A stretch of DNA of 63,019 nucleotides, the filler included, from Chrysochromulina tobinii (lineage: Eukaryota), in assembly GCA_001275005.1 (NCBI GenBank). It is 6 parts of 6 records of this genome, joined end to end, with 100 filler letters (N's around TTAATTAATTAA, not from the genome) between each part and the next. Parts side by side here need not be neighbours in the genome. Positions count along the whole stretch, not along the records: positions 33,902 to 54,467 come from JWZX01001010.1; 5 more parts are not named here. One strand, written 5' to 3'. The position numbers were made by a program, and so were the translations under genes. The notes under the pieces are model-generated. The model made no database searches. It saw nothing but the letters and a program-made list of their open reading frames with translations, and was not told the origin of the DNA. Every line of letters starts with the position of its first letter. The first letter of the stretch is position 1. Positions 1 to 60,413 of this stretch are shown here, one piece after another.

Positions 1-209
1 CGGCCCCCGTGAGGGGTGTGACAAGGGTGCCCCGGGCGCGCGGCCCCCGTCGCCTGACGCCAGCGCCGCGCGCCCCATTGCCGCGCCGGCTGCTGGCCAG
101 CCGGACGCCTCGCTGCTACGAGCTACTACGCAGTCGTCTGAACCCTTTGCACCCGCCAATGCGCCTCATGCACCCACCTTTGCGCACCCGAGAAGTCATC
201 TCCATGCTC

Positions 210-1478: not shown

Positions 1479-1748
1479 AGCGATCTCAGGGCGGGACCCC
1501 TGCGACCCTTTCAGCGACCACAAGGTGCCCGTCGACAGCGCGCAAGTTTGCCAATTTTCATGTTGGCAACATGTTCTGGACGAGATCGATTCCGTTTAGC
1601 GGACGAATTTGGGAACGTGTATTGTGGCGCGCTTTCATTACCCCGCGTATCGAACATGGTAATTTTCGAAACCATTCCAATTTCCGCGATGGATCTCGGC
1701 ACCAGATTCCTTTCTCGGGCACTCTGCACTGCGGGCGATTCGCACGTC

Positions 1749-3313: not shown

Positions 3314-3887
3314 CCCGACCGACGCTCTCTCGCATCATCCCCGTCGGCTGGGCGACGCTCAGCCCAATGCATGCACAGCGTGGGTACGCACCGCGCGCTC
3401 GAACGCTTCCTCGCTGCACCGTGTACGTTTGCCGTACCACAGCATGAGTCAGTCACAGCATGCCATGAGTATGAGGCTGTTGTGGGCTGGCACCACACCT
3501 GTCCACTCCGCGGGAGGAGCGCGCGCGGGCAGTACCGTAAAAGATCGGCGGAGTGGAACGTACACGGGCTGCGGCTGGCGGACGTATCGGAACGAAACCG
3601 AAGTACCAAACGGTGTGCTCGGTGGCTCTGGCTGGTTGGATGGTCTGGTGGTACACGGTGATATATCGTCTGATAATTCTCAGACGGTACACAAAGACCT
3701 TTCCGAGTCGCGACGCTCCTAATAACCGCCGCGGCGCGGCGCGCGGGCTGCCGGCGCGGGGACGGTGGACGGTTTTCACCGCCCCGCTCCCCGTCACTTA
3801 CGGCCGCAGGTCTTGTAGCTCCTCTTTCCGGAAGGTAGCGCCACTTGAAGACGCGGCTCAACAAGCCTCGACGCTGACAAACCTTGT

Positions 3888-5030: not shown

Positions 5031-5102
5031 CGGAATTGCTCTCCTTCCACTAAGTCAAGTCAATGTGTTAAAGTTGTAGTTGTAAGTTGTACATGTAAGT
5101 TC

Positions 5103-7149: not shown

Positions 7150-7249
7150 NNNNNNNNNNNNNNNNNNNNNNNNNNNNNNNNNNNNNNNNNNNNTTAATTA
7201 ATTAANNNNNNNNNNNNNNNNNNNNNNNNNNNNNNNNNNNNNNNNNNNN
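7150..7249. other. Artificial contig linker
   Basis: N44-TTAATTAATTAA-N44, which puts stops in all six frames. Confidence 0.98.
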
Positions 7250-22431: not shown

Positions 22432-22531
22432 NNNNNNNNNNNNNNNNNNNNNNNNNNNNNNNNNNNNNNNNNNNNTTAATTAATTAANNNNNNNNNNNNN
22501 NNNNNNNNNNNNNNNNNNNNNNNNNNNNNNN
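22432..22531. other. Artificial contig linker
   Basis: N44-TTAATTAATTAA-N44. Confidence 0.98.
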
Positions 22532-33801: not shown

Positions 33802-33901
33802 NNNNNNNNNNNNNNNNNNNNNNNNNNNNNNNNNNNNNNNNNNNNTTAATTAATTAANNNNNNNNNNNNNNNNNNNNNNNNNNNNNNNNNNNNNNNNNNN
33901 N
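33802..33901. other. Artificial contig linker
   Basis: N44-TTAATTAATTAA-N44. Confidence 0.98.
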
Positions 33902-34231: not shown

Positions 34232-36369
34232 ATGACCAGCGCGCGCGACCTCAGTCGCCAGCGTCGAGTGCTGGAAGAGAAGACGCAGATGATCCGGCAG
34301 GAATTTGCAGAGGGCGATAAGGAGTCCAACCTGGCACTTGTACTGATTCGAAGCTCGAGCTCGGCAGCTTCTCGCGCACACACACATTACACGCGCATGC
34401 TGATTAGCCGCGCACCTTGAGTCTCGCTTTCGCAGGACTTTGAAGAATTTCTCGCCATGCAACCGAAAGGCATTCGCGAACAACACAGTGCCGAGAAAAT
34501 CATGGAGTGGTTCAAGGCTGCAGACTCGGACGGTGATGACAAGCGTGCGTGAAAGAAGTTTCGAACTATAGCACGTCAGTAGCGCTCCTTTCATCCTGCT
34601 GACCCTTGGCTTGGTGCTCGCGCTGCGCCGGAGCAGTCTCGATCATGGAATTCTTCAAATACTCCATAGGGCCTGCCTCGCTGGAACACGGCTCCGCGGC
34701 GCTCGATGGCGTCTTCAAGCAGTTTGACAAGGACGGGGATGGTTCGCTCGATTTCAAAGAACTGTCAGATGCCGCCGACACGATTGGTATGGGCGGATTG
34801 GCGAACGACATCTTGAATGCCTTTATGCAAACCGATCGTGACCGGTCTGGCGGGATCACGTACGGCGAGATGCTCGAGGAGCTGCGCCGAGCGTCGCGGG
34901 CCGATTCGCGCACCATTTTGCTGCTGACGACGCTCATCTGGGGCTCGGAGAGCTCGAAGCCGGAGCAGTCATGCAAGGTGCTCGAGCTCGCCAAGACGTG
35001 GCGGATCAAGTCGCGTGACGCCCCGGCCCTGCACGCTGAGTTGCAGGAGCTCCTGCGCGACACCGGTTGCCACGTGGCAGATCTGCTTGCGCTCTTTGAT
35101 CACGACGCACTGGTCGCCCGTTCAGTGGATGATGTGGAGTTCTTGGCAGGGCTCAAGTCCTTCGGCTACAAAGGCTCAGCAAAGGTGGCCTCCGATGTCT
35201 TCAAGATGATCGATAAGTCCGGCGACGGCCAGATTGGATTTGATGAGCTCTTCGAATTCATACGTGGCCGACGCCACTGCCTGGACCGACGCAACGTGCA
35301 GGTGCGCCAGATGAGGCTGCAGCCGCCGCCCGGGGTGAGCTCACTTGAGAACGTGGTATGGGACGTGGAGACGCTGCGCATCCTGCTGCAGCAGATGCTT
35401 GCGCGGTACGGCGTGAGCATTGGCGAGCTCATGAGCTCATGGGACCGAAACGGCGACTTTACTGTGCAAAGGCTCGAGTTCCTCGATGGCGTGCGAGGGT
35501 TCTGCTCCGAGTACGAGCGCGTGCAGCTGTGGGAACGAGAGGTAGCCAAGGTGGCTATGGAGGCATTCACGCGGATCAACGCGAGTCCTCGAGGACGGAG
35601 TGACGCGATGAGCAGACACCGCGCAGACGTGCTCAACGAAGCCATCGAGTGCAGTGAACTTGGGCGTTGGCTCGAAAGGCCGACCCTACGGCCACACTCT
35701 ACGCAGGTGATCACCAAACGGAGAGAACCCACGGCACATAGGGCGCCAGAGAGGAGGAGAACAGAATCCACATTGACCCATCTCTCATCACGCCACGCGT
35801 CAGGCCGGCCCGTGAGCCCGCCTGGCTCCGGCGACGCGCTGACACGATTCGGCCGTCCGGACTGGAGGGAGCAACTTTCGCCGCGGTCGCCGCGGTCGCC
35901 GCTGCCACCGCTGAAGCCCTCGCCAAACTTTCGCCCATGGAGTCCCTCTCTAAATGTGCCTTGGTCGAGGCCGATGACGTCGAGGCCGATGACGACTCCA
36001 TCCTTGGCCTCGGCGCGCGTCAGCTCGACACAGCGCGTCAGCTCGCCCCGTCGGGATGACTTGAGCGCCGTGTCGAGCAGCATGGGGCTGGCGGCCGGGG
36101 GAGTCGGGGCGATTGTAAAGGGACTGCCAACCGGTGGGGCTGGGGCATACGTAAAGCCTGGCTTGTCGCCCGAAGAACAGACTCACATGGAGCTACTGGT
36201 CAACAATGAAACGGAGTACGCACTCATGCGTCAACGCCTCTTAGTCGGCAACGTGCTCGGCGAGCTCGACTGGCCCGATGCCGAAAGGTCCTCAGCTCTG
36301 ATTTCGCAAGCGGCAGCTCTGGCAAGCGTCAGCGCAAGAGGTGTTTCTCAGTCCTCGGGCAAGTGGTGA
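34232..36369 (+). CDS. Multi-EF-hand calcium-binding protein; 3 exons (34232-34339, 34436-34544, 34637-36369)
   Basis: Introns at 34340-34435 and 34545-34636 restore the loops DKESNLALDFEEF and DSDGDDKLSIMEF. Further loops: DKDGDGSLDFKE, DRDRSGGITYGE, DKSGDGQIGFDE. Confidence 0.85.
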
Positions 36370-44491: not shown

Positions 44492-44746
44492 GTGCGTTAC
44501 CGGTACCGGTAAAAAGACACCGGGTACCGGTAAAAAGACACCGGGGGGAGCCGGGACACACACGGGACACACGGGACACGCGGACACACGGGACACGCGG
44601 ACGCACAAAGGCACACGGACCACACAGACGAACCTCGCAACCATCCAAACCCACCAACAACACGCACCCCGCACGTCAGCGCGACGACCGAAGCCGCGGC
44701 CGACTCAACAGCCGCAGGCCCGGAGCCGACCGTGCGTTACCGGTAC
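44492..44746. mobile_element. ~225-bp SINE-like/non-autonomous insertion flanked by 15-bp direct repeats
   Basis: GTGCGTTACCGGTAC at 44492-44506 and 44732-44746. Internal GGGACACAC microrepeats and a 21-bp tandem duplication at 44502-44543. Confidence 0.65.
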
Positions 44747-45212: not shown

Positions 45213-46343
45213 TCAGTCGATGCAGGCCTCCGGGAAGAAGGGCGTGGGCAGCTTCTTGAGGATGGACTTCATCCACTCGTCGCGTGCGGGCACGTCGTAA
45301 AAGAAGAGATGGTTACCAGGCATCTCCTCGAGCTCGAAGGACGCAGTGGTGAAGCGCTTCCAGAGCTCGAGGTGGTGCTTCTTGCACCGGCAGTCCTTGC
45401 TCAGGACTCTGGCCTGCATCGGGATCGCGAAGGAAGGGCCAACGTGCGCGGGCGGCGGCGTGAAGCTATACGAGTCGAAGAGGGTGAAATCGTCGCGCAT
45501 CATGCCACTATACTGCTTCCAGTTGGGCTCCTCAAAGATGATCTCGTTGACGTTCCAGCCTCGGCATTCCTCTTGGAAGGTCGCCTCATCCATCTTCTCG
45601 TTCTTGTTCCAGGGCCGCTCCGCTTCGGGGATGTCAGGCGCGGGGAAGCCCGAGACGATCCACATGGCCGGCAACGGGATGCCCCTCTCCGCGCAGAGCT
45701 TGATCCACTCGTAGCTCATCCATGTGCCCATCGAGTGACCGACGATGACGTAGGGCACCTCTTCCTGCAGGAGCGGTGCGAGCACCGGGAAGAGCGCCTC
45801 GCAATACGGCCGCAGCGTGCGTTGGCGCGGCTCCTGCCGGCGCAGCTCACGCCCAGGTAGCTGACACGCGAGCAATTCGCCGCCATGGGCAGCGCAGTGC
45901 TTGACGAAGGCATTGTCAGTGGGCACACGCAGGCCGCGGCCGGTATAGACCGACTCGGCGCTGCCTGCATTGTGGAAGCAGACGATGCGGAACTTGGGAT
46001 TCGGTGCTGGGTGGCGTCCAGCAACTGGGAACCACGCCTTGAAGGCTTCATCGGAGGATTTCGGCATCTTCGGATGTGGCGGCGGTGCCGGCGGTAGCGA
46101 TGATGGTGCGGGCGGAGGCGGAGTGGGTGTGGCAACTGGCTCCGTTGTTCCGCCGGATTCAAAGTACGCCATCGCCTCCTCCTTGGACCACATAGTCATC
46201 TTGTCAAACACGATGTCGATGTCATCGGCCATAGCATTGGCTTGGACCTGCGAGCGCAAGAATGCAAGCGACGGTGGGTGGAAAGACGGTGCAGAGGCGG
46301 GGTCACAACGCACATCTTTCAGCTCCTCGAGCGTGAGCGGCAT
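45213..46343 (-). CDS. Type II (editing) thioesterase with a small N-terminal domain; probable in-frame intron at 46313-46248
   Basis: CFHNAGS, QLPGRELR, VGHSMG, MRDDF, MPGNHLF. The 66-nt GTGCGT..CGCAG segment looks like an intron. Confidence 0.85.
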   Translation of the reverse strand: MPLTLEELKDVRCDPASAPSFHPPSLAFLRSQVQANAMADDIDIVFDKMTMWSKEEAMAYFESGGTTEPVATPTPPPPAPSSLPPAPPPHPKMPKSSDEAFKAWFPVAGRHPAPNPKFRIVCFHNAGSAESVYTGRGLRVPTDNAFVKHCAAHGGELLACQLPGRELRRQEPRQRTLRPYCEALFPVLAPLLQEEVPYVIVGHSMGTWMSYEWIKLCAERGIPLPAMWIVSGFPAPDIPEAERPWNKNEKMDEATFQEECRGWNVNEIIFEEPNWKQYSGMMRDDFTLFDSYSFTPPPAHVGPSFAIPMQARVLSKDCRCKKHHLELWKRFTTASFELEEMPGNHLFFYDVPARDEWMKSILKKLPTPFFPEACID

Positions 46344-46491
46344 CCGCAGTAGGATCGGGCAGGTGTCAGAAGACCGCGTGAAGACGCAGTCTCGCGACGT
46401 TTCAAACTTGTGTGAGTTTCGTCCCATACGGCAACGGTTTTACAACCCGTCTGATATATTTCAGAACAAAACTGTCGGCACCCTTCTGTTC

Positions 46492-47778
46492 TTATTCATT
46501 GTCGAGCAACCATTGTACTATGGTGATGCATTGGCTGGTGAGCATCGGCACGGGACCTAGGCTGACGCGCACGGCGCCCCGAAGCTCGAGGATCTCTTCC
46601 TCAGCTTCCGTGAAGCCAAGGTGATCGCCGAGCACCGTCACCGTCGAATGCGCCGGTACGGCGGGCTGCGGGAGCGCAGTTCCGAGGAGCCGTTGGCCCG
46701 CCTCATGCATCGCGAGTAGACGAGGCGTCTCACCCCGAGGCTCCTCGCCGAGCATGCATGTGCTCACCACGGCGCCCGCACCCGCACATCCTCGTGCCTC
46801 ACCCTGAGGCTCCTCGCCGAGCATGCATGTGCTCACGACGGCGCCCGCACCCGCACATCCTCGTGCCTCACCCAGAGTCTCCTCGCCGAGCTTCGCCTCT
46901 GGCGCGTCGGCAGCGGCGTTCTCGCAAGCTGACGGCTCCTCGAGTACGGCCTTGGCGCACGTGAGCTCGACCAATAACGCCCCCAAGTCCATAGCCTCAC
47001 GCGTGCTCCAGCCGGGCAGCGGATGACCAGCCAGCGCACGCCCGACCGCCGCCGCCAGGCAGCGCTCGTCCGGGCGCAGCCCTTTGCACCGGCCGCCATC
47101 GCAGCAGACCACCCGTCGGGCATCCGCGAGGAGCAGCCACACGCGCGCCTCCTGGCGCACCCCATGCGAGTAGAAAAGGCACGCAGCCAGGCAGCGTGCG
47201 AGCAAGTCCACCCGCCCCTCTGGCAGGTTGTTCAGCTCGAACTTACCACGCTCTGCCAGGGCGCTCGGCGTCTCGTGGCACACGACAACAAACTCGCGGC
47301 GGCCCGGCGGAGGGCGCGGGCGCGTCGAGCGCTCCTGGCCAAACGCCTGCGAGGCGAGGCGCGAGGCGCGCTGGAGCGCCTCATCGGAGCGAGAGCACAG
47401 CTCAGCAGCCTCATACGAGCCGATTATAGACGCTTCGAGCCATCGGCCTCCCACGCGCGTGTGCGAGAGCCCCGCCGCCGCCGCCGCCGCCGCCGCGGCC
47501 GTCGCGGCCGTCGCGGCCGTCGCCGCCGCCGCCGCGTCAGACGCGCTCCATTGCAGGACGGCGGCTCCCGAAGATCGGCCGTCCTTGTCAGCCAGCAGCT
47601 TGATGTGGAGGGCGAGCATGGGCGCCATGGTGGGCGCCCCGGTACTCCCCTTGCGTGAGGCCGTGTGCCCCACGCTCGGCACGGCGCGCTCGAGAGCCGC
47701 GTACACGTCTGCGACGCTCGCTTCCCACGGGAGGCCGCGGAGGTGCACAAAGGTCGCCTCCGCCGCCTCCCGTACCCG
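46492..47778 (-). CDS. trmY: RRM + TrmY-like SPOUT methyltransferase (tRNA pseudouridine54 N1-methyltransferase, DUF358); no ATG before the RRM
   Basis: VHLRGLPWEASVADV (RRM); GRVDLLARC, SHGVR, LRPDER, HEAG, VLGDHLGF, VSLGP..MLTSQCITIV. In frame with DPH2. Confidence 0.8.
   Translation of the reverse strand, partial: RVREAAEATFVHLRGLPWEASVADVYAALERAVPSVGHTASRKGSTGAPTMAPMLALHIKLLADKDGRSSGAAVLQWSASDAAAAATAATAATAAAAAAAAAGLSHTRVGGRWLEASIIGSYEAAELCSRSDEALQRASRLASQAFGQERSTRPRPPPGRREFVVVCHETPSALAERGKFELNNLPEGRVDLLARCLAACLFYSHGVRQEARVWLLLADARRVVCCDGGRCKGLRPDERCLAAAVGRALAGHPLPGWSTREAMDLGALLVELTCAKAVLEEPSACENAAADAPEAKLGEETLGEARGCAGAGAVVSTCMLGEEPQGEARGCAGAGAVVSTCMLGEEPRGETPRLLAMHEAGQRLLGTALPQPAVPAHSTVTVLGDHLGFTEAEEEILELRGAVRVSLGPVPMLTSQCITIVQWLLDNE
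46729..46891 (+). repeat. 69-bp unit x2 plus a terminal 25-bp repeat; carries the introner-like core antisense to TrmY
   Basis: CTCACCCnGAGnCTCCTCGCCGAGC three times, separated by ATGCATGTGCTCAC(C/G)ACGGCGCCC... inserts. Confidence 0.85.
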
Positions 47779-47781
47779 TCA
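47727..47781 (-). promoter_or_regulatory. Candidate stop-codon readthrough signal: UGA-CGG + 5-nt spacer + 17-bp stem (1 mismatch) with 13-nt loop
   Basis: Arms at 47757-47773 and 47727-47743 are complementary at 16/17 positions. TGA at 47781-47779. Confidence 0.55.
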
Positions 47782-49653
47782 TTCGAGCTCGATTGCATCG
47801 GCGATCGGCGAGACCGCCTCCGAGATAAACTCCGAGATGCCGCTGCGCTCAGCCCTGTCACCCTTGCTGGCGTTGCCCTCACCAAGGCCTGCCTCACCAA
47901 CGCCGCCCTCACTGGCGCCCGCGCCCGCACCGGCCTCGTGCGCGCCGCCCTCGCCGGTGAACCCGCTCGCAATGCCCGAGCGGCCCTCGACAATGCGGCT
48001 GGGCGCATGCTCTCCAAGACGAGGCTCGAGCCCACGATATTCACGACGAGCCAACGCCTCGGCTCCGGTGCGCGCCATCGCGTAGTCGCCGCGCCGGGCC
48101 AGCGTGCCGCTCACGCCGCTTGCCACCAGGGTCCCATGGGTGTCTGCCGTGCCGCCAATGCTGCTGCTGCTGCTACCCACACTGCTGCTGACCTCTTCTC
48201 TTCCACCGCCAGCCGCAGACCCCGCGGCACTCATCGCCACTCCCGTGTTGGCCATCGAGCGCTTGGCTATGAGCTTGCCGCTCAGCTCTGAGAACCGCGG
48301 CGCCTCGTCCTCAGAGTCGTCGCCGTGTGCGCGCCCTCTGCCCTCCTCCTCCTCCTCCTCTGGCGCGGCGGCCGCCCGCAGCCGCGGCAGCAGCCGACCG
48401 TAATCCAGCATGTACTCGCCAGTCCATTCGGCGCCCTCGGCCAGCGCGACGTGCAGCTCATATGGCGTCACCACCGGCCGATAAAAGTCCTTGGCGTCGA
48501 GCAACGAGTGCTCCGCCGAGCCGAGGAGCACGTAGACGCCCACCTCGGCGAAGTTGGCCAACTTGGCCGCGTTGAGTTTGCCCATGATAAACACGTAGTG
48601 CTTGCGCGCCGCGCGCCGGCAGAGCGCCTTGAGCGCACGGAGCATCGGCGTGCGCTGCGAAGCGGAGAGCGTGCCTACGAGGATGCCCACCACCTCGGCC
48701 TCGCGCGCTTGCTGCACGAGGTAGTAGCGGCGCATCAGCCGACGCGCCGTTGCGAGCACTAGCCGACGCAGTGTGGGCGGCGCCGTCTCCTCGCACGCCG
48801 CCGCCTCGCGGTCGGAGGCATCCGCACGCGTGGCGGTTTGGGTGGGCGGCTCGTACAGATAGACCTCCGCATTTGGCAGCAGCAGGCACAGGTTCGAGAG
48901 CGTCTGGTCCTCGCTGCCGAGATAGACGAGCGCGGCGCACTGCCCGAGCGCCGCCTCATCGAGTGAGGCTCCAAGTCTCCGACCGAGGAGGAAGCCACGC
49001 GCGAGCGCGTCGGCGGCCGCAAAGGGGTCGGAGGTGCTCGGTACGGCCGCCGCGATGGCCGACGAGGAGGCCGACGAGGCGGTAACGACCGCAGGCTCGG
49101 CTTCGGTCGTTTCGGCTGTGCGCTCCACGTCCGAGTGGCACACGATCGCGCCCGCGCCAAGGCGAGCGGCAAGCGCCTCGGATGCATGCGCGTACGGCAG
49201 GGACGGCACGACAAGTACGCGGCGCGCAGCCTCGCCAGCGCCCAAAACCGGCGCGAATGCTGTCGAGAAATGCGCGATGTCGAGCGCGCGTCGCCCGAAG
49301 ACAAAGCGCACCGGCAGCGGCCCACGAGCCTCGAGGTCGACGGGTCCGTAGTGCACGATGAAGTCGGCGTCAAAATGCTGAGCCGCTACAAAATCGACCT
49401 GAAAGCCGTCGAAGGAGGTGTCGCCGAGCACAAAGAGCTCCACACCTGCGCCATCCAGGGCCTGCTGCAGCCCGGAGACTGCGGCCGATGCGTGCGTGAG
49501 CAACGTGTCTGGAAACTGCAGCGCTACGCGCCGATGATTGCCGCGTCGAATGTGCGCGGCAGTAGCTTCGACATCGAGGTCGAAGGTGGCTGGCTCGGCT
49601 CTGGCAATGTCGCGAGAGATTGCGCGTGCCTCGTCGCTGGAGAAGACCGACAT
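47779..49653 (-). CDS. DPH2: Diphthamide biosynthesis protein 2
   Basis: VALQFPD.LL, FVLGDTSF, VD.VAAQH, IVHYG, RRYYLVQQAR, GILVGTL, GKLNAAKLANF, FYRPVVTPYE, EGRSGIA. Confidence 0.92.
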   Translation of the reverse strand: MSVFSSDEARAISRDIARAEPATFDLDVEATAAHIRRGNHRRVALQFPDTLLTHASAAVSGLQQALDGAGVELFVLGDTSFDGFQVDFVAAQHFDADFIVHYGPVDLEARGPLPVRFVFGRRALDIAHFSTAFAPVLGAGEAARRVLVVPSLPYAHASEALAARLGAGAIVCHSDVERTAETTEAEPAVVTASSASSSAIAAAVPSTSDPFAAADALARGFLLGRRLGASLDEAALGQCAALVYLGSEDQTLSNLCLLLPNAEVYLYEPPTQTATRADASDREAAACEETAPPTLRRLVLATARRLMRRYYLVQQAREAEVVGILVGTLSASQRTPMLRALKALCRRAARKHYVFIMGKLNAAKLANFAEVGVYVLLGSAEHSLLDAKDFYRPVVTPYELHVALAEGAEWTGEYMLDYGRLLPRLRAAAAPEEEEEEGRGRAHGDDSEDEAPRFSELSGKLIAKRSMANTGVAMSAAGSAAGGGREEVSSSVGSSSSSIGGTADTHGTLVASGVSGTLARRGDYAMARTGAEALARREYRGLEPRLGEHAPSRIVEGRSGIASGFTGEGGAHEAGAGAGASEGGVGEAGLGEGNASKGDRAERSGISEFISEAVSPIADAIELE

Positions 49654-49806
49654 TTCCTTCGCTGTGGTGCGGCGACGTCACACGAGACCGCGTGAAATCA
49701 CGTGAAACACACGCGCCCATTCTGATCGAGAGTTCTTTATCTCTTTGACGAAATGACGAAATTCGGTGAACCCGCGGTCGCGCTCTTCTCGCCCGCTTGG
49801 GGGAGG

Positions 49807-52800
49807 ATGACCGTATGGGCCTTGATGGTCGCCGTGGCGGGCGCCGCTCCGACCCGCCTGCGTGCCGACGGTAGCGATTGGCTCTCCTTTCCTCGTTTCG
49901 CCCTCCCGCACATGGCGCGGCCGCTCTTCACCTGGGCACCTGGCTCGCAGACTGCATTCGCCCTCGAGCTCTCGGATGCAGCAGGCCACCTCGTCTGGGC
50001 ATCTGGCAAGCAACTTAGCACGGAGCCATCGGTGCGTTATCCGCCCTCGGCACCGGCTCTCCAATCTGGCACGTACCATTGGCGCGTCGCAACGTACTCC
50101 GACCCATCGTCAGAGCCCTCCCCCTTTGCTTCTGCCGCCCTCCATGTGGCCATCCCGCCCGCCGATTGGTCGATGGCTGCTTGGCTTGGCGGCGATGCTG
50201 TCAACGTGTACACCGCATCCTTCCAAACCGGGCCCAAGTCGGCGCTCGCCAGCGTGGTGCTGTACGTGTGCGGCCTCGGCTACTCCTCCGTCCGCTTCAA
50301 CGGCCAGGACCTGAATGTGCTCACGACGGCGCCTTGGACGAACAACGCCATCGTGAACGGGTTCTCCTCGCTCGATCTGACGCCGTGGTTGGCAGACGGG
50401 GGCGATGCGAACCACGTCATCGTCTCGCTCGGCTACGGCTGGCGCGACACGAATGTCTTCGCAGTGCGGGACGACGACTCGAAGGATCGCCCTGCCTTGC
50501 ATGCAAACGCTCATCACGGCGCCACGGTTCCCCACAGGTGCGGGACGACGACTCGAAGGATCGCGTGGGTGCTGTCGCGCGCATGCTGCGAGCCAAGGTC
50601 CTTGCGACGTTCAACAACGGCTCGACGAGCGTGCTCACGTACACCGGCGACGGGACTTGGCAGGCGGCCGCGGGCCCTAGCACGGCCGACTCGGTCTACA
50701 ATGGCGAGAGCTACGACGCTCGCATAGCGGCGGAGCTCTTTGACAGCGACGGCCGTGCCGCTGCGCGCTCGTCGTCGCGCTGGGTGCCGGCACCTCGCGT
50801 CGACGGCCCGGCTGGCCGGATGGTCCCTTGGTCGGTGCCGCCCGTCGAGGTGCTCGAGACGGCGCCCCACACCTGCGGACCTCTGACGATTGCCTCGGAT
50901 TGCATGCTGATGGCCTCCCTCGTTGCATGCAGGTGCTCGCGACGGTGCCCCCGGTGGCGATGACGACCCCCAAACCCGGCCTTTACTTGTTCGATTTCGG
51001 AGTGCGAGCCTCCGGCGTGACGCGCCTCAAGCTGGTCGCCTGCCCCTCTGGCGCGACTCTTCGGATCCGGCACGCGGAGATCATGCAGCACGCGGGGCTG
51101 CCCGACCTGCAGACGGTGGACCCGACGATGATCTACACTGGCAACCTGCGCTCTGCCGAGGCGACGGACGTGTACACGTGCGCCGGTGGCAGTGCGACAT
51201 GGGCTCCTGCGCTCACTTACCACGGCTTCCGGTTCGCCGAAGTCAACGTGAGTGGCGCCGCTGGAGTCATCCTGACGATGGACAGTGTGGAGATGGTGCA
51301 CTTTGCCTCGGCCGTACCGCAGCGCACGCAGGTCAACTTCACCTCGGCCACGCTCAACAAGCTCCAGGCGATGGCTGTCGGCGCCCAGCGCTCCAACTTG
51401 ATGACGATCCCGACCGACTGCGACCAACGCGACGAGAGGCTCGGATGGTTGGGTGACGCGAACCTGAGCGGCGAGTCGATGGCGCTCAACTTTGACATGT
51501 CGGCGTTCTTCAGCTGGTTTCTGCTGTGCGTGCTCTCGCGGCCGAGATCAGACCCGTGATTAGACCGAGATCGCAACCGAGATCAGACCCGTGATTAGAC
51601 CGAGATCGCAACCGAGATGAGGCCCGTGATGGCCTCGGATGGCCCCTGATGGCCACTGCTGGCCTCGGATGACCTCCCTCATCCACTGATTGCCTCGGAT
51701 GACCTCCCTCATCCACTGATTGCCTCGGATGACCTCCCTCATCCACTGATTGCCTCGGATGACCTCCCTCATCCACTGATTGCCTCGGATGACCTCCCTC
51801 CACAGGTACGGTATCGCGACCGAGGTCGGGCACGGCGTCAACGGCAGCCTGCCCGATGTCGTGCCCTTTCTGCGTTACGGCGGCCGGCCGGCCGATGTGT
51901 CGTGGAGCGCCGCCATGATCACGCTGCTGCACGTCGGATGGAAGCAGTACGGCGACCTTCGCACGTATCGCTCGATGGGCGACGAGGTCGCTGCCCAGTT
52001 AGCGAACGTGGCAGTGCAGGCCGCCGCCGGCCTTGGCAAGATGCACACGCCGTACGGGGATTGGTGCCCCCCGCCGGAGAAGATGGGAGGCGGCCAAGGG
52101 CCCAAGCCTAGCGAGCCTCTTACCTCGGCCTTTTCGTATGTGACGATGGTGAAGCACGCCTCCGAGCTGGCCGACGCGTCCGGCGACGCTGCGGCCGCGA
52201 AGACGCTCGACGACCTCGCGGCGAAGCTCACCGATGAGTACAATGCGGCCTTCTATCACAAGGAGAGCGGCTCGTACGACACGGGCACGCAGACGGCGCT
52301 CGCGCTCGGCCTCGCCATGGGGGCCGCACCGGACACGAAGGTGACTCAGAAGGCACTCCGGACCCTGCCTCGCATGCAAACGCTCATCACGGCGCCCTCG
52401 TTCCCCACAGGCGACTCAGAAATTACTCCTCGACAAGCTCGACGCCAAGGGCACGCACTTTGACACGGGCATCATCGGGCTGAGCCAGCTCTTCCCGGTG
52501 CTCGGTGCGGCCGGGGCGCACGATACGGCGCTTGCGGTGCTCGCGCAGACCGACTACCCTAGCCTCGGGTTTGAGTTTGCGAATGAGCTGGAGAAGACCA
52601 CGACCAACCTGTGGGAATTGCCCGACGCGCCGGCAGAGGGCACCGGCATGAACTCGCGTAACCATCACATGTACTCGTCGTACTCGTCCTACCTGGTGCA
52701 GAGCGTCGCGGGGGTGCGCTCACCACGGCGCCCGAAAGCGAGGCATCTCCCTGCATGCAAGCGCTCACCACGGCGCCCGAAAGCGAGGCATCTCCCTGCA

Positions 52801-53627
52801 TGCATGCGCTCACCACGGCGCCCTCGCTCTGTCAGGTGCGCCAGGTCGCGGGCAGCCACGGCTACAAGCACCTCGAGCTGCGCGCCGCGAGCGCGCGCGC
52901 GCTGCATGGTGCGTCGGCCACGCTCGACCTGCCCTCAGGCGAGCTGAGCTTTCGCTGGAGCCGATCGGGAGGGCGTCAGCACGACAAGGTGAGTGAGGGC
53001 GACAGCGCCGAGTTCGACTGCGGCCCGCGCGGCGGCGTCATCGAAGCGGTCGAGTTTGCGTCGTTTGGCACTCCCGCAGTGCGACGTCGCTCCGCAGTGG
53101 GCGGGATCAGCGAGATGAGCGAGATCCCGCCGCTGGAGGCGCACCCGCTGTGCCATGCGCCCCGCTCGGCCGAGGTACTCACGTCCGCCTGCGTCGGGCG
53201 CCAGCGCTGCTCCATGCTGGCGACGCGCGAAGCTCTTGGACTGGACGCTTCCAAATTTGGAACGGAGCTCCTCGCCAACTGCTCCGCGGCGGCCAAGCGC
53301 CGTGGTGGGCGCCTCGCCGAGTGGTCCGACCCGCTGCGCTTCTGGGCGACGGTGCGCTGCTCGGTGGCCGCAGAGTCCCTCGACGTGAGCACCACGATCC
53401 CTCTCGGGGTGAGCGCGACGCTTGTGCTGCCTCTGCGCGACATGCGCAACCCTGTCGTCGTCGACGCGACGAGCCAACCAACCATCTTCCCACAGCGGAC
53501 CTTCCCCAGCTTCGTCAATGATGCGCTTGTGCTGCTGGACGATCAGGAGTTGGGCCGCGCGCTCGCTCTCGAGCTCAAGAGTGGTGAGTATACGCTTGTC
53601 CTCCAGGACGGCGCTGTCGAGGTGTGA
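49807..53627 (+). CDS. Secreted alpha-L-rhamnosidase (GH78) with a SUEL/Gal-lectin-like domain; 6 exons
   Basis: Signal-like MTVWALMVAVAGA; YHGFRF, IPTDCDQRDERLGWLGDA, YGDWCPP, TTNLWE, NSRNHHM. Introns at 50464-50537, 50850-50932, 51526-51805, 52341-52410 and 52714-52835 each restore the frame. An alternative ATG lies at 49753. Confidence 0.9.
50464..50537 (+). mobile_element. Introner-like intron A
   Basis: First 27 nt are identical to the first 27 nt of the next exon. Last 48 nt match intron D at 44/48. Confidence 0.75.
50850..50932 (+). mobile_element. Introner-like intron B
   Basis: First 19 nt match the next exon start at 17/19. Shares GATTGCCTCGGAT and CCTCCCTC with intron C. Confidence 0.65.
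51526..51805 (+). repeat. Intron C, filled by 35-bp x2 and 30-bp x4.7 tandem repeats
   Basis: (CCGAGATCAGACCCGTGATTAGACCGAGATCGCAA)2; (TGCCTCGGATGACCTCCCTCATCCACTGAT)n at 51661-51800; GTGCGT..CACAG ends. Confidence 0.85.
52341..52410 (+). mobile_element. Introner-like intron D
   Basis: Starts GTGACTCAGAA versus next exon GCGACTCAGAA. 3' part nearly identical to intron A. Confidence 0.75.
52714..52835 (+). mobile_element. Introner-like intron E (45-bp unit in tandem)
   Basis: GCGCTCACCACGGCGCCCGAAAGCGAGGCATCTCCCTGCATGCA twice plus a partial copy. Same core as introns A and D. Confidence 0.7.
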
Positions 53628-53656
53628 AAGGACCCTCGGGTGTGAAAGGACCCTCG
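53621..53656 (+). repeat. 18-bp tandem duplication spanning the GH78 stop codon
   Basis: (GGTGTGAAAGGACCCTCG)2. Confidence 0.8.
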
Positions 53657-54467
53657 GGGTTCGGGAGGGGAGTGGGCTGGAGGGGTGCCGCGCTCTGTTG
53701 AGCTGTGTGTCGGTGGCTGTGTTCTGTCGTTGTGGCCGGGCGGGGCGGCGTGGCTCCGCTCGCTGGTTGGTGTGGGCTGGCCGAACGACGTTCGTCGCGC
53801 TTCCGTGCGGATACCTGGCGCGCGGTTGACCGCGCGTGCTTGAGAGGAATCTCAGGGGAGGGCTCCGTCGCCATGTCCGTCGCGTACAGTCCGGTCCGCC
53901 ACGGGCCACTCCCCGACGCGTCAGTCCCCGGTCCGGGGGTCCGAGGACACACGCGCACTGGAGAGGAGACCGCTTAATATACTTATTGATGTACTTATTG
54001 AGATATGAAAAACCGCGGCCCCGCGTCCATGGCGGCATGAAGGAACCAAAACGGGACACCATGTACCGTTTGACGCACAAAATGGCACATAGCCTCACCT
54101 TTCCCTACCCCACCCCATGAGCACCCTCTACCTATGCGCATCCCGCATTGCATGGCTCTTCTTGGGGGACTCGCGGTGCGCTGGTAGGCTGGTAGCAGTT
54201 CCTTCCCAGCACCCTATTACCCGCCTTGTACGGGTTCGATCCAAGTGTCAGCCCTTCCCGGCCTTCTCGACTCTGGTCAGTGGTCGCTTACCCCTGACGG
54301 TACGCTTTGACCTCCGATTTCCCGCATCCTCTCCAGGTCATGCTCCTCTTCCACATTCACCTCGCTCCGAGTATATCGCTCGGATCGTCAAACCCCCTGC
54401 TGCCGGAGCCGCCGCATCCCCCATGTCTATTTGCACCGATCGACATGTGCAGGAGAGCGCCGGAGAA

Positions 54468-54567
54468 NNNNNNNNNNNNNNNNNNNNNNNNNNNNNNNNN
54501 NNNNNNNNNNNTTAATTAATTAANNNNNNNNNNNNNNNNNNNNNNNNNNNNNNNNNNNNNNNNNNNN
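54468..54567. other. Artificial contig linker
   Basis: N44-TTAATTAATTAA-N44. Confidence 0.98.
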
Positions 54568-57500
54568 CCCCTCCTCCCCCTCCTCCCCCTCCTCCTGCCG
54601 CGCACTCGCCCTCTGCTTCTTTGCGGGTAGCTCACTGTCTGGGCTGGGCAGCAGATGGGAGTAGCCCTGTCTTGTCGCCCATTCTTCAAAGGCAGGGTCA
54701 GATCCAGCGCGGTATGAAGAGTCAGCTCCAGCGCGGCACGAAGGAAAGGATCCGCCACTGATGGCACCGCCCATCCCAACGCTGCTGCTCGAAGACGGGA
54801 ACCCACCTCCAGAGGCACCTCGAGCTGCATCAACCTTGGCCATCACTCCGAAGATGCCACAAGTCTCTGCTATCCCGCCCGCCCCGCCTAGCAGGCTGTT
54901 GCTCCCAAACCAACCCGATGTGCTATGTGAGTATGTGTTCTGCGGATTCTCGTGGTGCATGGCCTCTCCAACTTGCCGACCGCCAAGCTTGTATAGCGCA
55001 GCGGCAAGCTCAGGGTCTTTCTCTCTTGCCCTCTTTCCTGCTTGGAGCAATTCACCACCTAGCTTCGCCTGCTCCGGGTTCATCGGGGTCTTGCCCTTCG
55101 GCGGCACGTGCACGCGCTCGCCTTGCACGGGCATTTGCGACCGCGGGGAGAAGGAACCGTCCGCGAACGCAGTGCGGTGTGACCTGCCCGGTGGTCCGCT
55201 CGGTGGTCCGCTCGGGACGCTGACACTGCTTCTCGCCGACTGCATGTAGTACATCATATCTACCGTTGGGCTGCATGGGTACACGTTCTTGTCTTGCACG
55301 TCTACAATCTTGCCAACTTGCCCTCCAACCCGTGAACCGGTCTCGATCCGCACCGTCCCTCGGTCGTTGCTCCAATCGACGATTATGCCGTTTTGCCCGT
55401 TGTAAATACAGTCAGCCCCGTACAAGCCTCCAACTTGCACGCGCTCGCCTTGCATGAGACCGTCCGGCGGTGGCGGCTGCTGCAGCTCTGGCGGTGGCGG
55501 CTGCTGCGGCGGAAGCGCCAGTGCTTGTTGCAGCTCATCGTCGTCGTCAGTCATTCTCTGTTCCATGTCGTCAGGAATCTCCTCATATGACCCAGGTCTC
55601 CCATCCCGTCTCATGATATGACGAAAATGCTCGACGTTGTGGTCGAGACTAAGGCTCTGCGGCCGAGCCGCCGGCAAGCACCACTCCTCTCTGCCGAAGA
55701 GAGGCTCCTCGGTGCCCTGCAGCGCTCTGAGAACATGGCAGCTGACTCGCTTCTTCTCACCTAGGAGCACAACGTGGATCCAGAGCCTATCTTGATCGGT
55801 GTTGACCATTTGCAGAGCACGCAGGCCACACGGATCTTCACGGAGCAGGCTGTGAGCCCTCACACGAAGAGCATCTCGCATTCCAGGGTCGACCAATGCG
55901 TCGAACGCCCGCTGCTTATCATCAGCGGGCGTGTATCGAGGGCCAATCATGCCTTGGACCGCCGCCTCACGCACATTCCCTTCCGAGTCTTCGAGCCTTG
56001 CGACGATCGCGGGCGCGTGCTGAGAGAGCGTCGCCGCATCCAGCTTGCCAAGAGTCGAGACCGCCGCCTCACGCACATTCCCTTCCGAGTCCTCGAGCCT
56101 TGCGACGATCGCGGGCGCGTGCTGAGCGAGCGTCGCCGCATCCAGCTTGCCAAGAGTCGAGACCGCCGCCCTACGCACATCCCGATCGGAGTCCTCGAGC
56201 CTTGCGAGCAGCTCGGCCTGACTCGGCACAGGGCTGGCCAGCGCCCCAGCGCCGTCTTGCAATGCCTCCGACGCCGCTTCGTGCGTCTTGCGCACGCAGT
56301 CCTCGATGCCATCTCGATCATCTAGCCGTGCCACATGATCTCCGAGCTTGCAGCACCGAATGCCCTCGTCTAGGAGCGGTGCGCAACGCTGCCGCGCGAG
56401 CTGAAAGAGCGCATGCGCCGCAACTGGATGCATCAGCAACACGAGCAGGACCGACCCGCCACGCTTCCACACCATGTCGATGTCATCCACACCGACACCA
56501 GAAGGCCAGACGCTTGACTCTGTCAGCTCCTTCACTTTGGCCTCGATGATGTCCTCGACGGATGAGGTGCTGCTGCTATCACTTGGTGTCTCGGAGCCAA
56601 GGGTGACGACCATACTATCATCCCGAAGCGACGGGCTGATCGCGATTAATATTTCGCAGTTGCGGGTGCCCACCCGCGCCATCCGCCTCCTTCCAGGATG
56701 GTAGAGCTCGATCTGTACGAGTCGATAATCACCTTTGCAGATCTCGTCATCCAACAGCCCGGCCAGCACTTTACGCAGCCTCAGTACGCGCGCATCGTCA
56801 AAGGCGGAGATGTCTCCTTCAATGCACAGCGTGATCATCTCATGCGGTATCTTCGACGGCGATGTCAACGTGGTGCTGGTGCCGTCGGTGCTGGTGCCGG
56901 CGCCGGTGCCGGGGGTGTTATGGAGTAACATAGCTTGAGACAGCCAGTGCTTCGTAATCGGCTGGGCTCCAGGCATGTCGACGGGAGCTGGCAGGTGATA
57001 CGTCGCCATGGATTGCTGCAGCAAGTACTGCTTCAGAGCGGCTGCCTGCATGTCGATGGACGCGAGCTCAGCCTGACAATGTTGTGCCTTCCAGCTCTCT
57101 GATGCCGCCAGCTTGATGGTTTCCGCCGCCTGCTGCACATCAACTGCACTTGAGCTCGCAGCCGATGCGGCACAGGTGGCCCTATCGGCAGAGCTAGTCG
57201 CATCGACTGCGGCAGCATTCGCGCCCATGGTATGCAGAGCCGCATCTTGCTCGTGCCCGCGCGCCTCGGCCGCTGCTGCGCGTGCCTCATCCCGAGCCGC
57301 CAATCCTTGCTCCGCGTTGTGCATGGGGCGGCTCTCCAGCTGCCCTCGGAGACGTTCGCGAGCAGGTCGTCCGATGGGCTCGCACTGGATGTGATCGAGG
57401 ACCGCCCTCAAGGGCTTCTCCAGAGCCTCAATGGGCCGTGCCTTGCCATTTGGCCCCAAGTCCCCCCGAACACTGTGCACCGCCCAGCCGACCACAGCCC

Positions 57501-58290
57501 CGCTCGATGCGTTGACGACCGGCCCGCCGCTGTGTCCCGAGTAGATCGTCACCCCCAATTTGAGCCAAGCTCCAGAAATGTCTTTCTCGAAGCGGCCAGC
57601 GTAGTGTCCACGACAAGTGGTGGACGTGCGCTCAGCACCGAAGCCCATATCATTTCCTCCCTGGTGGCTGCCCTGCCCGTACCCAAGCAGCACGAGTTCG
57701 TGGCCCTCGACAAGCTCAGGTTCTGACGTGCGGCCCAGAGGCAGTGCGCCAGCAGGCTCACCGTCTCGATGCCATGGAAGCTCAGATGCGAGCCCTTGGA
57801 GCGGCCCACCCGTCCACTCACACAGCTGGAGAATGGCAAGGTCGATCCTCTCGTCGTTGTACACGATCATCTCTCGGGCTTCGGCAGCAGCAGACCAGGT
57901 CGATGGGATCGGGTGGGGATACCTGGGCTCGAGAGGCGGCTGGCTAACAAGCAGCAGCTTTGCGCGTCGAACCCAACGCACTCTCTCACCGATGCCGACG
58001 CCAATGGCAACGCCGTGATCCTTCGGGTCCAAAGGCGATGCGTGGAAACAATCGATAGCGACGTGGGCGCAGGTGCACAAGAGCCCACGATCCAGATCAA
58101 CTATCCAGCCGCTACCAATGAGAGCATTATCATCGGGTGCAAGGCTCTTCCGCACACCAATTGCCACCACGCCGCGCTGCCAGTGAGGTACAGTTGAGGA
58201 CATGAGCCGAGGTTCCCCCTTGTGCGGAACTCCACTGCAGAACTCCGTGGGCCTCCTGTGGAGCTCCGACGCGGGGTGATAGGCCGCCAT
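54568..58290 (-). CDS. Multidomain protein: trypsin-like serine peptidase + Ala-rich coil + TRADD-N-like domain + HEAT repeats + unknown domain + SH3/KOW-like segment (C-terminus truncated)
   Basis: Triad motifs TCAHV, DLAIL, GHSGGPVV. 34-aa HEAT repeats (ARLEDSEGNVREAAVSTLGKL). First in-frame ATG at 58290. Confidence 0.75.
55957..56207 (-). repeat. 102-bp coding tandem repeat (~2.5 copies, HEAT)
   Basis: Units start at 55957, 56059 and 56161 on the + strand and are nearly identical in nucleotide sequence. Confidence 0.9.
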
Positions 58291-58735
58291 CTCTTGGTCC
58301 GCCACGGCAGCGATGTGAGTTGTCGGTACTCCATGGCAGATCGCGCTGTGTTGGGCACGGTGTACAATTGTATTCGATGACCCAGGACGGCTTCGACCGT
58401 AAGTCGTGACGACGTCGACGACGACGCAACAATTCAATTCAATTCAATTCAAGTCGCAATTAACAATCGCACCTCGCGACCGGCCGCTATAAAACAGCCC
58501 CGCGCCACTCCGCCACACCACGAGACCTCGAGACAATCACAGTGGATCACCGGTACCGGGTACCGTGCACTGTGCACACATCTCTGGTGGATGGCACCCC
58601 CATGGCAGCGGTCCACTCCCCTCTACAAACAGCCGCGCGGGCTGACCAATATCCATGAATACCCTCGAGCCTCGAGATCAGTCATCAGATGTGGAGGGCA
58701 TGCGTGGCTCAGGTGAGGCTGACGCTACCCTACCC

Positions 58736-60313: not shown

Positions 60314-60413
60314 NNNNNNNNNNNNNNNNNNNNNNNNNNNNNNNNNNNNNNNNNNNNTTAATTAATTAANNNNNNNNNNNNNNNNNNNNNNNNNNNNNNN
60401 NNNNNNNNNNNNN
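60314..60413. other. Artificial contig linker
   Basis: N44-TTAATTAATTAA-N44. Confidence 0.98.

What the first reader, a model, noticed from the sequence alone, without database searches (positions are those of the whole stretch)
50464..52835. Family of short introner-like elements whose introns begin with a copy of the next exon
Seen: four of five GH78 introns start with sequence matching the next exon (A 27/27 nt, B 17/19, D 10/11, E 6/6). A and D share their last 48 nt at 44/48. A, D and E share the core GCATGCA(A/T)(A/G)CGCTCA(T/C)CACGGCGCC, and B and C share GATTGCCTCGGAT..CCTCCCTC. In D the exon reads GC where the intron copy reads GT. Known: introners are transposons that create introns, usually with short fixed-length target duplications. 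Inference: a ~45-nt unit supplies the branch point and acceptor while a long, variable-length target duplication supplies the donor. This is an atypical and apparently recent intron-gain mechanism.
Basis: partly seen in the sequence, partly recalled or inferred. Interest (0 to 1): 0.82.

Follow-up and report, generated by a model that had tools for sequence, protein, structure and literature searches.

The report
Intron-making repeat that duplicates its target
Five spliced introns in one sugar-cleaving enzyme gene of a probable freshwater haptophyte alga belong to a high-copy repeat family whose introns start with a 9-46 base copy of the next exon, and new copies are likely made by copying resident introns rather than by an ordinary transposon.

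Summary
Window 49753-53627 (+) is a GH78 alpha-L-rhamnosidase gene with five introns: 50464-50537, 50850-50932, 51526-51805, 52341-52410 and 52714-52835. RNA contigs skip four of them in 3 of 3 runs and the fifth in 2 of 3. A DNA run shows none of these joints.

The 6/6 match at intron E is not convincing on its own.

The core GCATGCA..CGCTCAYCACGGCGCC is not confined to this contig. Of 106 non-allelic copies, 56 have a clear copy of the downstream exon upstream of the core. Of these 56, 44 start GT or GC (9-46 nt, median 24.5) and 43 end CACAG.

There are no inverted ends. Six daughter copies carry exon-derived sequence of another locus, four of them joined at 4-10 nt microhomology. Two full-length copies have no duplication.

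I read this as an introner-like family that likely spreads by microhomology-guided template switching from resident introns. Retroposition is the main rival.

It is a new variant of a known kind.

The parts
49753..53627 (+). GH78 alpha-L-rhamnosidase gene with a C-terminal SUEL-lectin domain. It has six exons (49753-50463, 50538-50849, 50933-51525, 51806-52340, 52411-52713, 52836-53627) and encodes 1081 aa from the first ATG. 49807 is an alternative start.
   Evidence: The spliced reading frame is open. Pfam domains Ig_Rha78A_N, Bac_rhamnosid_N, Bac_rhamnosid, Bac_rhamnosid6H, Bac_rhamnosid_C and SUEL_Lectin continue across the junctions. RNA contigs cover the gene. The best named relative is Emiliania huxleyi EMIHUDRAFT_100487.
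50464..50537 (+). Intron A, 74 nt. Positions 50464-50490 are a 27/27 copy of exon 2's start (50538-50564). Positions 50491-50537 are the element: linker CCTGCCTT, core at 50499-50523, tail ACGGTTCCCCACAG.
   Evidence: RNA joint 50463/50538, GT..AG, with 27 letters fitting both sides, in 3 of 3 RNA runs. Present in a roughly 99% identical environmental strain, L017, whose intron copy differs at 3 positions.
50850..50932 (+). Intron B, 83 nt. Positions 50850-50868 are a 17/19 copy of exon 3's start (50933-50951). The rest holds the 5' module GATTGCCTCGGAT (50888-50900), TGCATGCTGATGGCCTCCCTC, and an acceptor inside GCATGCAG.
   Evidence: RNA joint skipping 83 nt in 3 of 3 runs. The same intron start is seen in L017.
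51526..51805 (+). Intron C, 280 nt, phase 2. It holds two tandem arrays: a 35-nt unit x2.5 (51542-51630) that resembles exon 4's start, and a 30-nt unit CCACTGATTGCCTCGGATGACCTCCCTCAT x4.9 (51653-51800), which is the family's 5' module.
   Evidence: RNA joint skipping 280 nt in 3 of 3 runs. A 61% identical relative, P0195, reads through this junction.
52341..52410 (+). Intron D, 70 nt. Positions 52341-52351 (GTGACTCAGAA) copy exon 5's start GCGACTCAGAA (52411-52421) at 10/11. The core is at 52372-52396 and the tail is CTCGTTCCCCACAG.
   Evidence: RNA joint skipping 70 nt in 3 of 3 runs. The exon's GCG (Ala) fits the ATQ motif seen in homologs. A variant of the intron is read through in P0194.
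52714..52835 (+). Intron E, 122 nt. It is GT followed by 2.4 tandem copies of a 45-nt unit (CGAAAGCGAGGCATCTCCCT plus core; 52716-52823), with cores at 52753-52777 and 52798-52822 and the tail CTCGCTCTGTCAG. Only GTGCGC is shared with exon 6.
   Evidence: RNA joint skipping 122 nt in 2 of 3 runs. The unit matches the exon-derived duplicate, linker and tail type of locus L013/L057.
46729..46891 (+). Two extra 69-nt units, each a core variant flanked by a 23-44 nt direct repeat of the site. They lie antisense inside the minus-strand gene 46492-47778 (Methyltrn_RNA_2). They have no GT..AG frame and add 138 nt in frame.
   Evidence: The Pfam profile is split 2-95 | 129-195 around the array. No RNA contig skips it, and contigs run into it from both sides at low depth.

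Best explanation
The five introns are spliced members of a high-copy intron-making repeat family without inverted ends, and new copies are likely made when a polymerase working on an exon switches by microhomology onto a resident intron and then returns to the exon. The polymerase would copy the resident intron's 3' part: core, pyrimidine tail and CACAG.

Shown:
- The introns are spliced.
- The family exists at many unrelated loci.
- The duplicates are 9-46 nt long and start GT or GC.
- Copies carry sequence derived from another locus's exon.
- Several junctions sit on microhomology.
- Some copies have no duplication.

Inferred:
- A return upstream of the point of departure would duplicate 9-46 nt of the target, and the first copy of that duplicate supplies the GT donor.
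- A return at the point of departure would give a full-length copy without a duplication.
- The direct repeats then allow tandem gain of whole units, as in introns C and E.
- Whether the template is DNA or RNA, and which enzyme acts, is unknown.
- The branch point is taken to be CTCAC in the core, or CTGAT in the 5' module.
For: Splicing.

Family:
- The best upstream copy of the downstream exon scores 9 or more in 75 of 110 instances. In a control shifted 100 nt it does so in 4 of 108.
- Of 106 non-allelic representatives, 78 have a single core and 56 of these have a duplicate scoring 9 or more. Among the 56, 38 start GT and 6 start GC, 43 tails end CACAG, and 30 duplicates are perfect. The 44 GT/GC duplicates are 9-46 nt long, median 24.5.
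- There are no inverted repeats in A or D and no Rfam family.

Copying from resident introns. I picked six daughter copies by hand from the pair list. Each carries sequence that is the exon-derived duplicate of another, unrelated locus, usually with the same tail type:
- L111 to L115/L083
- L095 to L039
- L094 to L044
- L119 to L091
- L038 to L055
- L013/L057 to window intron E

The junctions overlap by 5 (CCTCG), 0-1, 10 (CGACCGCGCA), 7 (AATACCG, coding in both genes), 0 and 4 (GCGC) nt respectively. L091 and L055 are full GT..AG copies with a target duplication of 2 nt or less.

Duplicate length and linker length trade off (rho -0.72, n=42), so the region from GT to the core stays within 26-52 nt.

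In the unbiased repeat search, 48 of 93 unique copies are exactly spliceable. Random insertion followed by selection would be expected to leave mostly unspliceable copies.
Against: - No template switch was observed.
- Later gene conversion between copies could also move parental sequence into a resident intron.
- GT at the start of the duplicate is both the proposed return microhomology and the splice donor consensus. The data cannot separate mechanism from selection here.
- Two of six junctions have 0-1 nt overlap.
- A fixed 3' end with variable 5' truncation and a variable duplication is also the classic footprint of target-primed reverse transcription.
- Part of the length trade-off is an artefact. 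Diverged or gapped duplicates are counted as linker (for example L098, L096, L112).
- No whole genome is held. The genic to intergenic ratio and the orientation bias are therefore unknown.
Confidence: 0.45

Rival explanations
1. Retroposition by target-primed reverse transcription. Intron RNA ending in ...CACAG-3' would be reverse-transcribed at a nick just before a GT. A second nick 9-46 nt downstream would give the variable target duplication. Incomplete cDNA would give the 5' truncation, with microhomology joining at the 5' end, as for L1/SINE insertions.
For: In spliceable copies the 3' end is fixed: 43 of 56 tails end CACAG. The 5' extent varies (linker 0-42 nt, two outliers of 68 and 88), the duplicates are 9-46 nt, and there are no inverted ends. 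5'-junction overlaps of 4-10 nt occur in 4 of 6 pairs. Non-LTR retrotransposon introners are reported, at about 5% of classified families (PMC12130899, passages read).
Against: L091 shares 7 nt of its parent's upstream exon, and L091 and L055 have no duplication. Copies that are not introns have other 3' ends: core plus CAG in L026, core plus CTTGG in L044, and CGCACCCGCACATCCTCGT in the window's antisense array. There is no A-rich or LINE-like tail. No reverse transcriptase matched Pfam (E up to 1e-5) in any of the 21 long ORFs of the window that I scanned, which is a very small sample.
Confidence: 0.22
2. Filler capture at staggered double-strand breaks (Daphnia-type NHEJ model). Long 5' overhangs would be filled in, giving the direct repeat, and stray fragments of the abundant repeat would be ligated in. 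Selection would keep only the spliceable products.
For: Variable direct repeats flank an insert, as described for Daphnia intron gains (review PMC3443670, passages read). Non-intron copies have variable ends, and the antisense in-frame array shows that insertion does not require GT..AG.
Against: Random ends would rarely place AG exactly before the second repeat copy, or GT exactly at the first. Yet about half of the unique copies are exactly spliceable (48 of 93). Parent-specific sequence and matching tails show ordered copying from one donor. Copies without any duplication also exist.
Confidence: 0.12
3. A conventional non-autonomous DNA transposon (MITE-like introner) moved by a transposase, as in Micromonas, Aureococcus or dinoflagellates.
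For: The general logic matches published introners: one splice site is carried by the element and the other is taken from the target duplication (PMC9860276 Fig. 2B text; bioRxiv 10.1101/2020.10.14.339549; passages read).
Against: The duplication ranges from 0 to 46 nt instead of a fixed 3-9 nt (the 3-9 bp figure is from PMC9860276). There are no terminal inverted repeats. The 5' end of the element is variable, and copies carry sequence of other loci.
Confidence: 0.06
4. Reverse splicing of excised introns into mRNA, reverse transcription with template jumps, and recombination of the cDNA with the gene. This is classical intron transposition in its RNA form.
For: The full-length GT..AG copies L055 and L091 have no duplication. 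Of the 44 upstream exons, 15 end in AG. New units sit exactly at existing intron-exon borders in L122, L090, L040 and L052. The model appears in the review PMC3443670.
Against: Most copies have a duplication and a truncated 5' part, which needs an extra template jump. L091 shares upstream exon sequence with its parent. The antisense and non-intron copies cannot come from sense mRNA.
Confidence: 0.1

Closest known systems
Introners / introner-like elements of algae and dinoflagellates (Micromonas pusilla, Aureococcus anophagefferens, Symbiodinium, Polarella glacialis). Sources: PMC9860276, PMC11282704, bioRxiv 10.1101/2020.10.14.339549 (passages read).
   Same: A multi-copy family that creates precisely spliced introns in unrelated genes. 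[quoted passage not shown] A second mode carries the 5' site and takes AG from a copy of the upstream exon (L016, L025).
   Different: Published duplications are short and fixed: 3 nt in Micromonas; 4, 5 or 8 nt in dinoflagellates; 3-9 bp overall. Many published families have inverted ends. Here the duplication is 0-46 nt and variable, there are no inverted ends, the 5' end is truncated at varying points, and copies carry exon-derived sequence of other loci.
Non-LTR retroposon (SINE/L1-type) insertions. The footprint is recalled from general knowledge. Non-LTR introners are mentioned in PMC12130899 (passages read).
   Same: Variable-length target duplication, an intact 3' end, 5' truncation, and microhomology at the 5' junction.
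   Different: There is no A-rich or LINE-matching tail and no known partner. Some copies lack any duplication or share the parent's upstream exon. Non-intron copies have other 3' ends.
Intron transposition and reverse-transcription template switching, as listed in the review PMC3443670 (passages read); fungal introner-like elements.
   Same: New introns are copies of resident introns and include full GT..AG copies without a duplication.
   Different: Those models predict no target duplication. Here most copies have a long one and only the 3' part of the donor.
Daphnia intron gains flanked by short direct repeats (DSB repair model; PMC3443670, passages read) and tandem duplication of an AGGT-bearing exon segment.
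   Same: Direct repeats of exon sequence bracket the new intron, and one repeat lies inside it.
   Different: The insert is always the same repeat family rather than arbitrary filler, and the intron is not made of duplicated exon alone.

Membership tests
Introner (intron-generating mobile element) | Many similar copies forming introns in unrelated genes | tested here: met
Three of the window's five introns carry the core. The other two carry the family's 5' module.
Introner (intron-generating mobile element) | Copies are removed precisely by splicing | tested here: met
   All five window introns are skipped exactly in RNA contigs: four in 3 of 3 runs and one in 2 of 3. Homolog alignments have no gap at any junction. 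Splicing of the metagenome copies was not tested.
Introner (intron-generating mobile element) | Lineage-specific, recently gained positions | tested here: inconclusive
   P0001 (69% identity, 767 aa on a 2715-nt contig) reads through junctions B-E, and P0195 (61%) reads through C. A roughly 99% identical strain has A and B. No empty-site allele was seen, and loss in the relatives is not excluded.
MITE-type introner (DNA transposon) | Fixed-length target-site duplication | tested here: not met
   Duplicates are 9-46 nt, median 24.5. L055 and L091 have 2 nt or less.
MITE-type introner (DNA transposon) | Terminal inverted repeats | tested here: not met
   No inverted repeats of 7 nt or more in introns A and D. 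In B the only pair is the internal TGCATGC/GCATGCA.
MITE-type introner (DNA transposon) | Autonomous partner encoding a transposase | not testable with these tools
   No whole genome is held.
Non-LTR retroposon (SINE-like, TPRT) | Variable target duplication, intact 3' end, 5' truncation | tested here: met
   for the spliceable copies only. Non-intron copies have other 3' ends.
Non-LTR retroposon (SINE-like, TPRT) | A-rich or LINE-derived 3' tail and a LINE partner | tested here: inconclusive
   The tail is C/T-rich and ends CACAG. No reverse transcriptase matched Pfam in the 21 long ORFs of the window scanned. The genome was not available.
Intron transposition by reverse splicing | Whole GT..AG intron copied to a new site with no target duplication | tested here: not met
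   This is true of L055 and L091 only. Most copies have a duplication and a truncated donor.

The most novel reading that the evidence does not exclude
Spliceosomal introns in this alga multiply without any transposase. Resident introns serve as templates, and a polymerase switches onto them and back by a few bases of homology. The visible traces are parent-daughter chimeras and a target duplication of 0-46 nt. If so, these would be the first sequence footprints of the long-proposed template-switch route of intron gain, in a cultured organism where it can be tested.
Probability: 0.4. Interest if true: 0.88.

Novelty: new variant of a known kind. Interest (0 to 1): 0.74.

Why it matters
How new spliceosomal introns arise is a long-standing open question. 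Published introners are read mostly as DNA transposons with short, fixed target duplications.

This family is active enough to leave perfect 27-46 nt duplicates. It sits in an organism that grows in mixed culture and already has DNA and RNA data. Its copies keep a readable record of their donor: the parent's exon sequence, tail type and junction overlaps.

That record makes the mechanism testable by genome-wide parent-daughter analysis, by a search for empty sites, and by experiment. It also warns gene annotators that in such genomes the start of an intron can look like coding sequence.

Tried and rejected
- **Whole-genome motif search.** No genome is held for this window. The record behind L017 is not held either.
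- **Alternative intron E using the 8-nt repeat GTCGCGGG (52705/52845).** Rejected. RNA uses 52714-52835, and VAGVRQ-AG is also present in homologs.
- **Viral carriers.** The core has 0 matches in viral contigs.
- **Known RNA families.** None in 46000-54000 at E up to 0.1.
- **L070 as parent of L100/L046.** Dropped. Only CGCCCA is shared beyond the daughter's own sequence, the tails differ, and ...CCCA before the core recurs in many copies.
- **Non-intron copies as multiples of three.** 19 of 36 'not intron-like' units are 0 mod 3, against 16 of 48 intron-like units. However, the class is contaminated by diverged introns. Nearly every frame is open in this G+C-rich DNA, so coding status could not be settled.
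- **Splicing of the antisense array at 46729-46891.** No joint was seen and RNA depth there is low. No conclusion on whether it is translated.
- **Copy number from depth.** Summed contig depth rises from about 120 to 5765 and 12086 at the motifs in X10. The tool states that this is not a copy number.
- **Literature.** Searches 'introner + target site duplication', 'introner + Aureococcus + TSD', 'introner + haptophyte' and 'Chrysochromulina + introns...' listed no paper describing long variable duplications or this family. Supplementary tables of PMC9860276 and PMC12130899 were not opened, and bioRxiv supplements are closed. They may list families with such features.
Full report
**What is there.** The window is eukaryotic DNA of about 65% G+C. 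It has long uninterrupted reading frames for kinesin, MIOS, DPH2, a protein kinase and others. Positions 49753-53627 (+) hold a GH78 alpha-L-rhamnosidase gene with a C-terminal SUEL-lectin domain.

Removing five segments gives one open frame of 1081 codons. The segments are 50464-50537, 50850-50932, 51526-51805, 52341-52410 and 52714-52835. Pfam profile coordinates run on across each junction. An alignment with 19 homologs has no gap at any junction.

RNA contigs of three metatranscriptome runs skip 74, 83, 280 and 70 nt in 3 of 3 runs and 122 nt in 2 of 3, all GT..AG. DNA run X10, which is not flagged as the source, has none of these joints.

**The observation.** All repeat figures were reproduced:
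- A 27/27
- B 17/19
- D 10/11 (15/19 if extended)
- E 6/6
- the last 48 nt of A and D at 44/48
- the core in A, D and twice in E
- GATTGCCTCGGAT and CCTCCCTC in B and C

I scored each anchored match against 3110 GT-starting 40-mers from elsewhere in the window. The observed score is reached 0 times for A, once for B, once for D and 59 times for E. E alone is therefore not convincing.

C has no anchored copy, but its 35-nt tandem unit resembles the start of exon 4 (13/15, p about 0.012). Three ordinary RNA-supported introns nearby (34340-34435, 34545-34636, 46248-46313 on the minus strand) share 0-2 letters across the joint and have no core. The duplication is therefore not a general property of introns here.

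In D the exon's GCG (Ala) fits the ATQ motif of homologs. The GT of the intron copy is therefore the derived state, or the copy was imperfect from the start. Six of 44 family members still begin with GC.

**A genome-wide family.** The whole genome is not held.

For each core I searched the 130 nt upstream for the best ungapped copy of the sequence that follows an AG downstream.
- The score is 9 or more in 75 of 110 distinct instances. It is 9 or more in 4 of 108 when the downstream anchor is shifted by 100 nt.
- After merging alleles there are 106 representatives. Of these, 78 have a single core and a tail of 45 nt or less, and 56 of those have a duplicate scoring 9 or more.
- Among these 56, 38 start GT, 6 start GC and 12 start otherwise. 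43 tails end CACAG, and 30 duplicates are perfect.
- The 44 GT/GC duplicates are 9-46 nt long (median 24.5). 42 of the 44 introns are 63-99 nt, close to the 66-96 nt of the ordinary introns.

Examples are L003 and L078 (46-nt perfect duplicates), L070 (36) and L002 (25).

A second mode exists. The element GT(A/T)CGTTGATTGCCACTGATGATCTGCCTT plus core carries the donor, and a copy of the end of the upstream exon supplies the AG (L016, L025). Its TGATTGCC..GATGA..C..CCT part is the motif shared by introns B and C of the window. All five introns therefore belong to one superfamily.

Introns A and D have no inverted repeats. Nothing matches Rfam. The core is absent from the viral collection.

**Age.** L017, from a different metagenome, is about 99% identical to the window. 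It has introns A and B at the same sites, and its intron copy of the A duplicate differs at three positions. P0194 reads through a variant of intron D.

More distant relatives read through the junctions. P0001 (69% identity, 767 aa on a 2715-nt contig) spans B-E, and P0195 (61%) spans C. That these metagenome proteins are uninterrupted frames is my inference from contig length and from how such genes are usually called.

The positions are therefore lineage-specific, but I saw no empty-site allele. The best named relatives of two genes are haptophytes: Emiliania huxleyi for GH78 (57%) and Pavlovales sp. CCMP2436 for DPH2 (38%).

**How copies are made.** Four observations bear on the mechanism.

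First, daughters carry sequence of other loci. In six cases the stretch between a copy's own duplicate and the core is the exon-derived duplicate of another, unrelated locus, usually with the same tail type. I picked these by hand from the list of non-allelic pairs that share 12 nt or more before the core. The pairs are:
- L111 to L115/L083
- L095 to L039
- L094 to L044
- L119 to L091
- L038 to L055
- L013/L057 to the window's own intron E (unit CGAAAGCG[A/G]GGC+ATCTCCCT+core, tail CTCTG[T/G]CAG)

Donors are therefore resident copies, not a master element.

Second, the junction between own and parental sequence overlaps by 5, 0-1, 10, 7, 0 and 4 nt in these pairs. Four of six overlaps are 4 nt or more, where about 0.3 nt is expected by chance.

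Third, the duplication is not obligatory. L055 and L091 are full GT..AG copies of their parents with 2 nt or less of duplication. L091 shares AATACCG with the parent's upstream exon, although the two genes are otherwise unrelated and the heptamer is coding in both.

Fourth, copies that are not introns exist. The window's own example is 46729-46891: two extra 69-nt units antisense inside a Methyltrn_RNA_2 gene. They are flanked by 23-44 nt repeats, lack GT..AG, are in frame, and split the Pfam profile 2-95 | 129-195. Still, 48 of 93 unique copies in the unbiased repeat search are exactly spliceable.

A transposase with a fixed stagger does not fit a 0-46 nt spectrum. Random filler capture does not fit the precision of the AG|GT borders.

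I therefore favour copy-choice. A polymerase leaves the exon, enters a resident intron at a microhomology, copies to just beyond CAG, and returns to a GT-starting site. If the return is upstream of the departure point, the stretch between is duplicated and supplies the donor.

The direct repeats then favour tandem gain of whole units, as in introns C and E and in L052, L090 and L094 versus L106. Target-primed reverse transcription of intron RNA explains the fixed 3' end, the 5' truncation and the variable duplicate equally well. It remains the main rival. It fits the copies without duplication, the shared upstream exon and the other 3' ends less well.

The negative relation between duplicate and linker length (rho -0.72, n=42) keeps the GT-to-core distance at 26-52 nt. 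Part of it is an artefact of diverged duplicates being counted as linker. The rest may reflect a minimal intron size.

**Against what is known.** That an introner can carry the 3' splice site and take the 5' site from its target duplication is published (PMC9860276, Fig. 2 text; bioRxiv 10.1101/2020.10.14.339549; review PMC11282704; passages read).

The duplications described there are 3-9 bp and fixed per family, and many families have inverted ends. PMC12130899 (passages read) adds retroelement introners and families of unknown mechanism.

The review PMC3443670 (passages read) lists intron transposition, reverse-transcription template switching and break repair with short direct repeats as proposed routes with little direct evidence.

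My searches listed no paper on long variable duplications or on this family. I did not open the supplementary tables of the two PNAS papers.

**Limits.**
- All runs were contigs, so there are no splicing efficiencies and no rare variants.
- The parent-daughter set is small and hand-picked.
- The enzyme and the template (DNA or RNA) are inferred.

**Verdict.** The thing is a new variant of the introner kind, and its footprints make the mechanism of intron gain directly testable.

Noticed in passing
window 46729-46891 (+), inside minus-strand ORF 46492-47778: A 69-nt unit x2.4 holds a core variant antisense to a Methyltrn_RNA_2 gene. It adds 138 nt in frame between profile positions 95 and 129. 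No RNA contig skips it, so it may be translated as a protein insertion.
   Followed up: partly
window 50317-50333 (+), exon 1 of the GH78 gene: GTGCTCACGACGGCGCC is identical over 17 nt to the core variant at 46829-46845. It encodes the LTTAP motif that is conserved in GH78 homologs. No match is expected by chance in shuffles, and the cause is unexplained. It confuses RNA assemblies: loose ends at 46845 continue with exon 1 sequence.
   Followed up: partly
window 7150-7249, 22432-22531, 33802-33901, 54468-54567, 60314-60413: Five places each hold two runs of 44 N separated by 12 bases. These are masked or withheld stretches of regular shape.
   Followed up: no
window 34340-34435, 34545-34636 (+), 46248-46313 (-): Ordinary GT..AG introns of 96, 92 and 66 nt are supported by RNA contigs. 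They have CTGAT/CTGAC-like branch motifs, no core and no exon copy. The second and third have short sides or a single run.
   Followed up: yes
window 55957-56207, inside minus-strand ORF 54520-58443 (trypsin-like + HEAT): A 102-nt tandem repeat x2.5 (a multiple of three) lies inside a long reading frame.
   Followed up: no
window 44502-44640: A cluster of short tandem repeats. RNA contigs of three runs replace 46 nt (44575-44620) with AACGAT and read A for G at 44637. This may be a strain difference or another repeat family.
   Followed up: no
loci L122, L082, L006: Core-type units sit directly behind another repeat-type intron end (...GATTGCC..CACAG|GT...). New units seem to land exactly at existing intron-exon borders.
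   Followed up: partly
loci L026, L021, L027, L105, L117, L044/L094/L106: Copies without GT..AG frames have unit lengths of 45, 54, 63, 60, 75 and 51 nt, all multiples of three. This would fit in-frame coding insertions, but coding status could not be settled.
   Followed up: partly
proteins P0074-P0097: The neighbouring DPH2 gene has a graded series of 87-100% identical variants in many metagenome sources. The organism therefore belongs to a widespread species complex with no closely related named protein.
   Followed up: no
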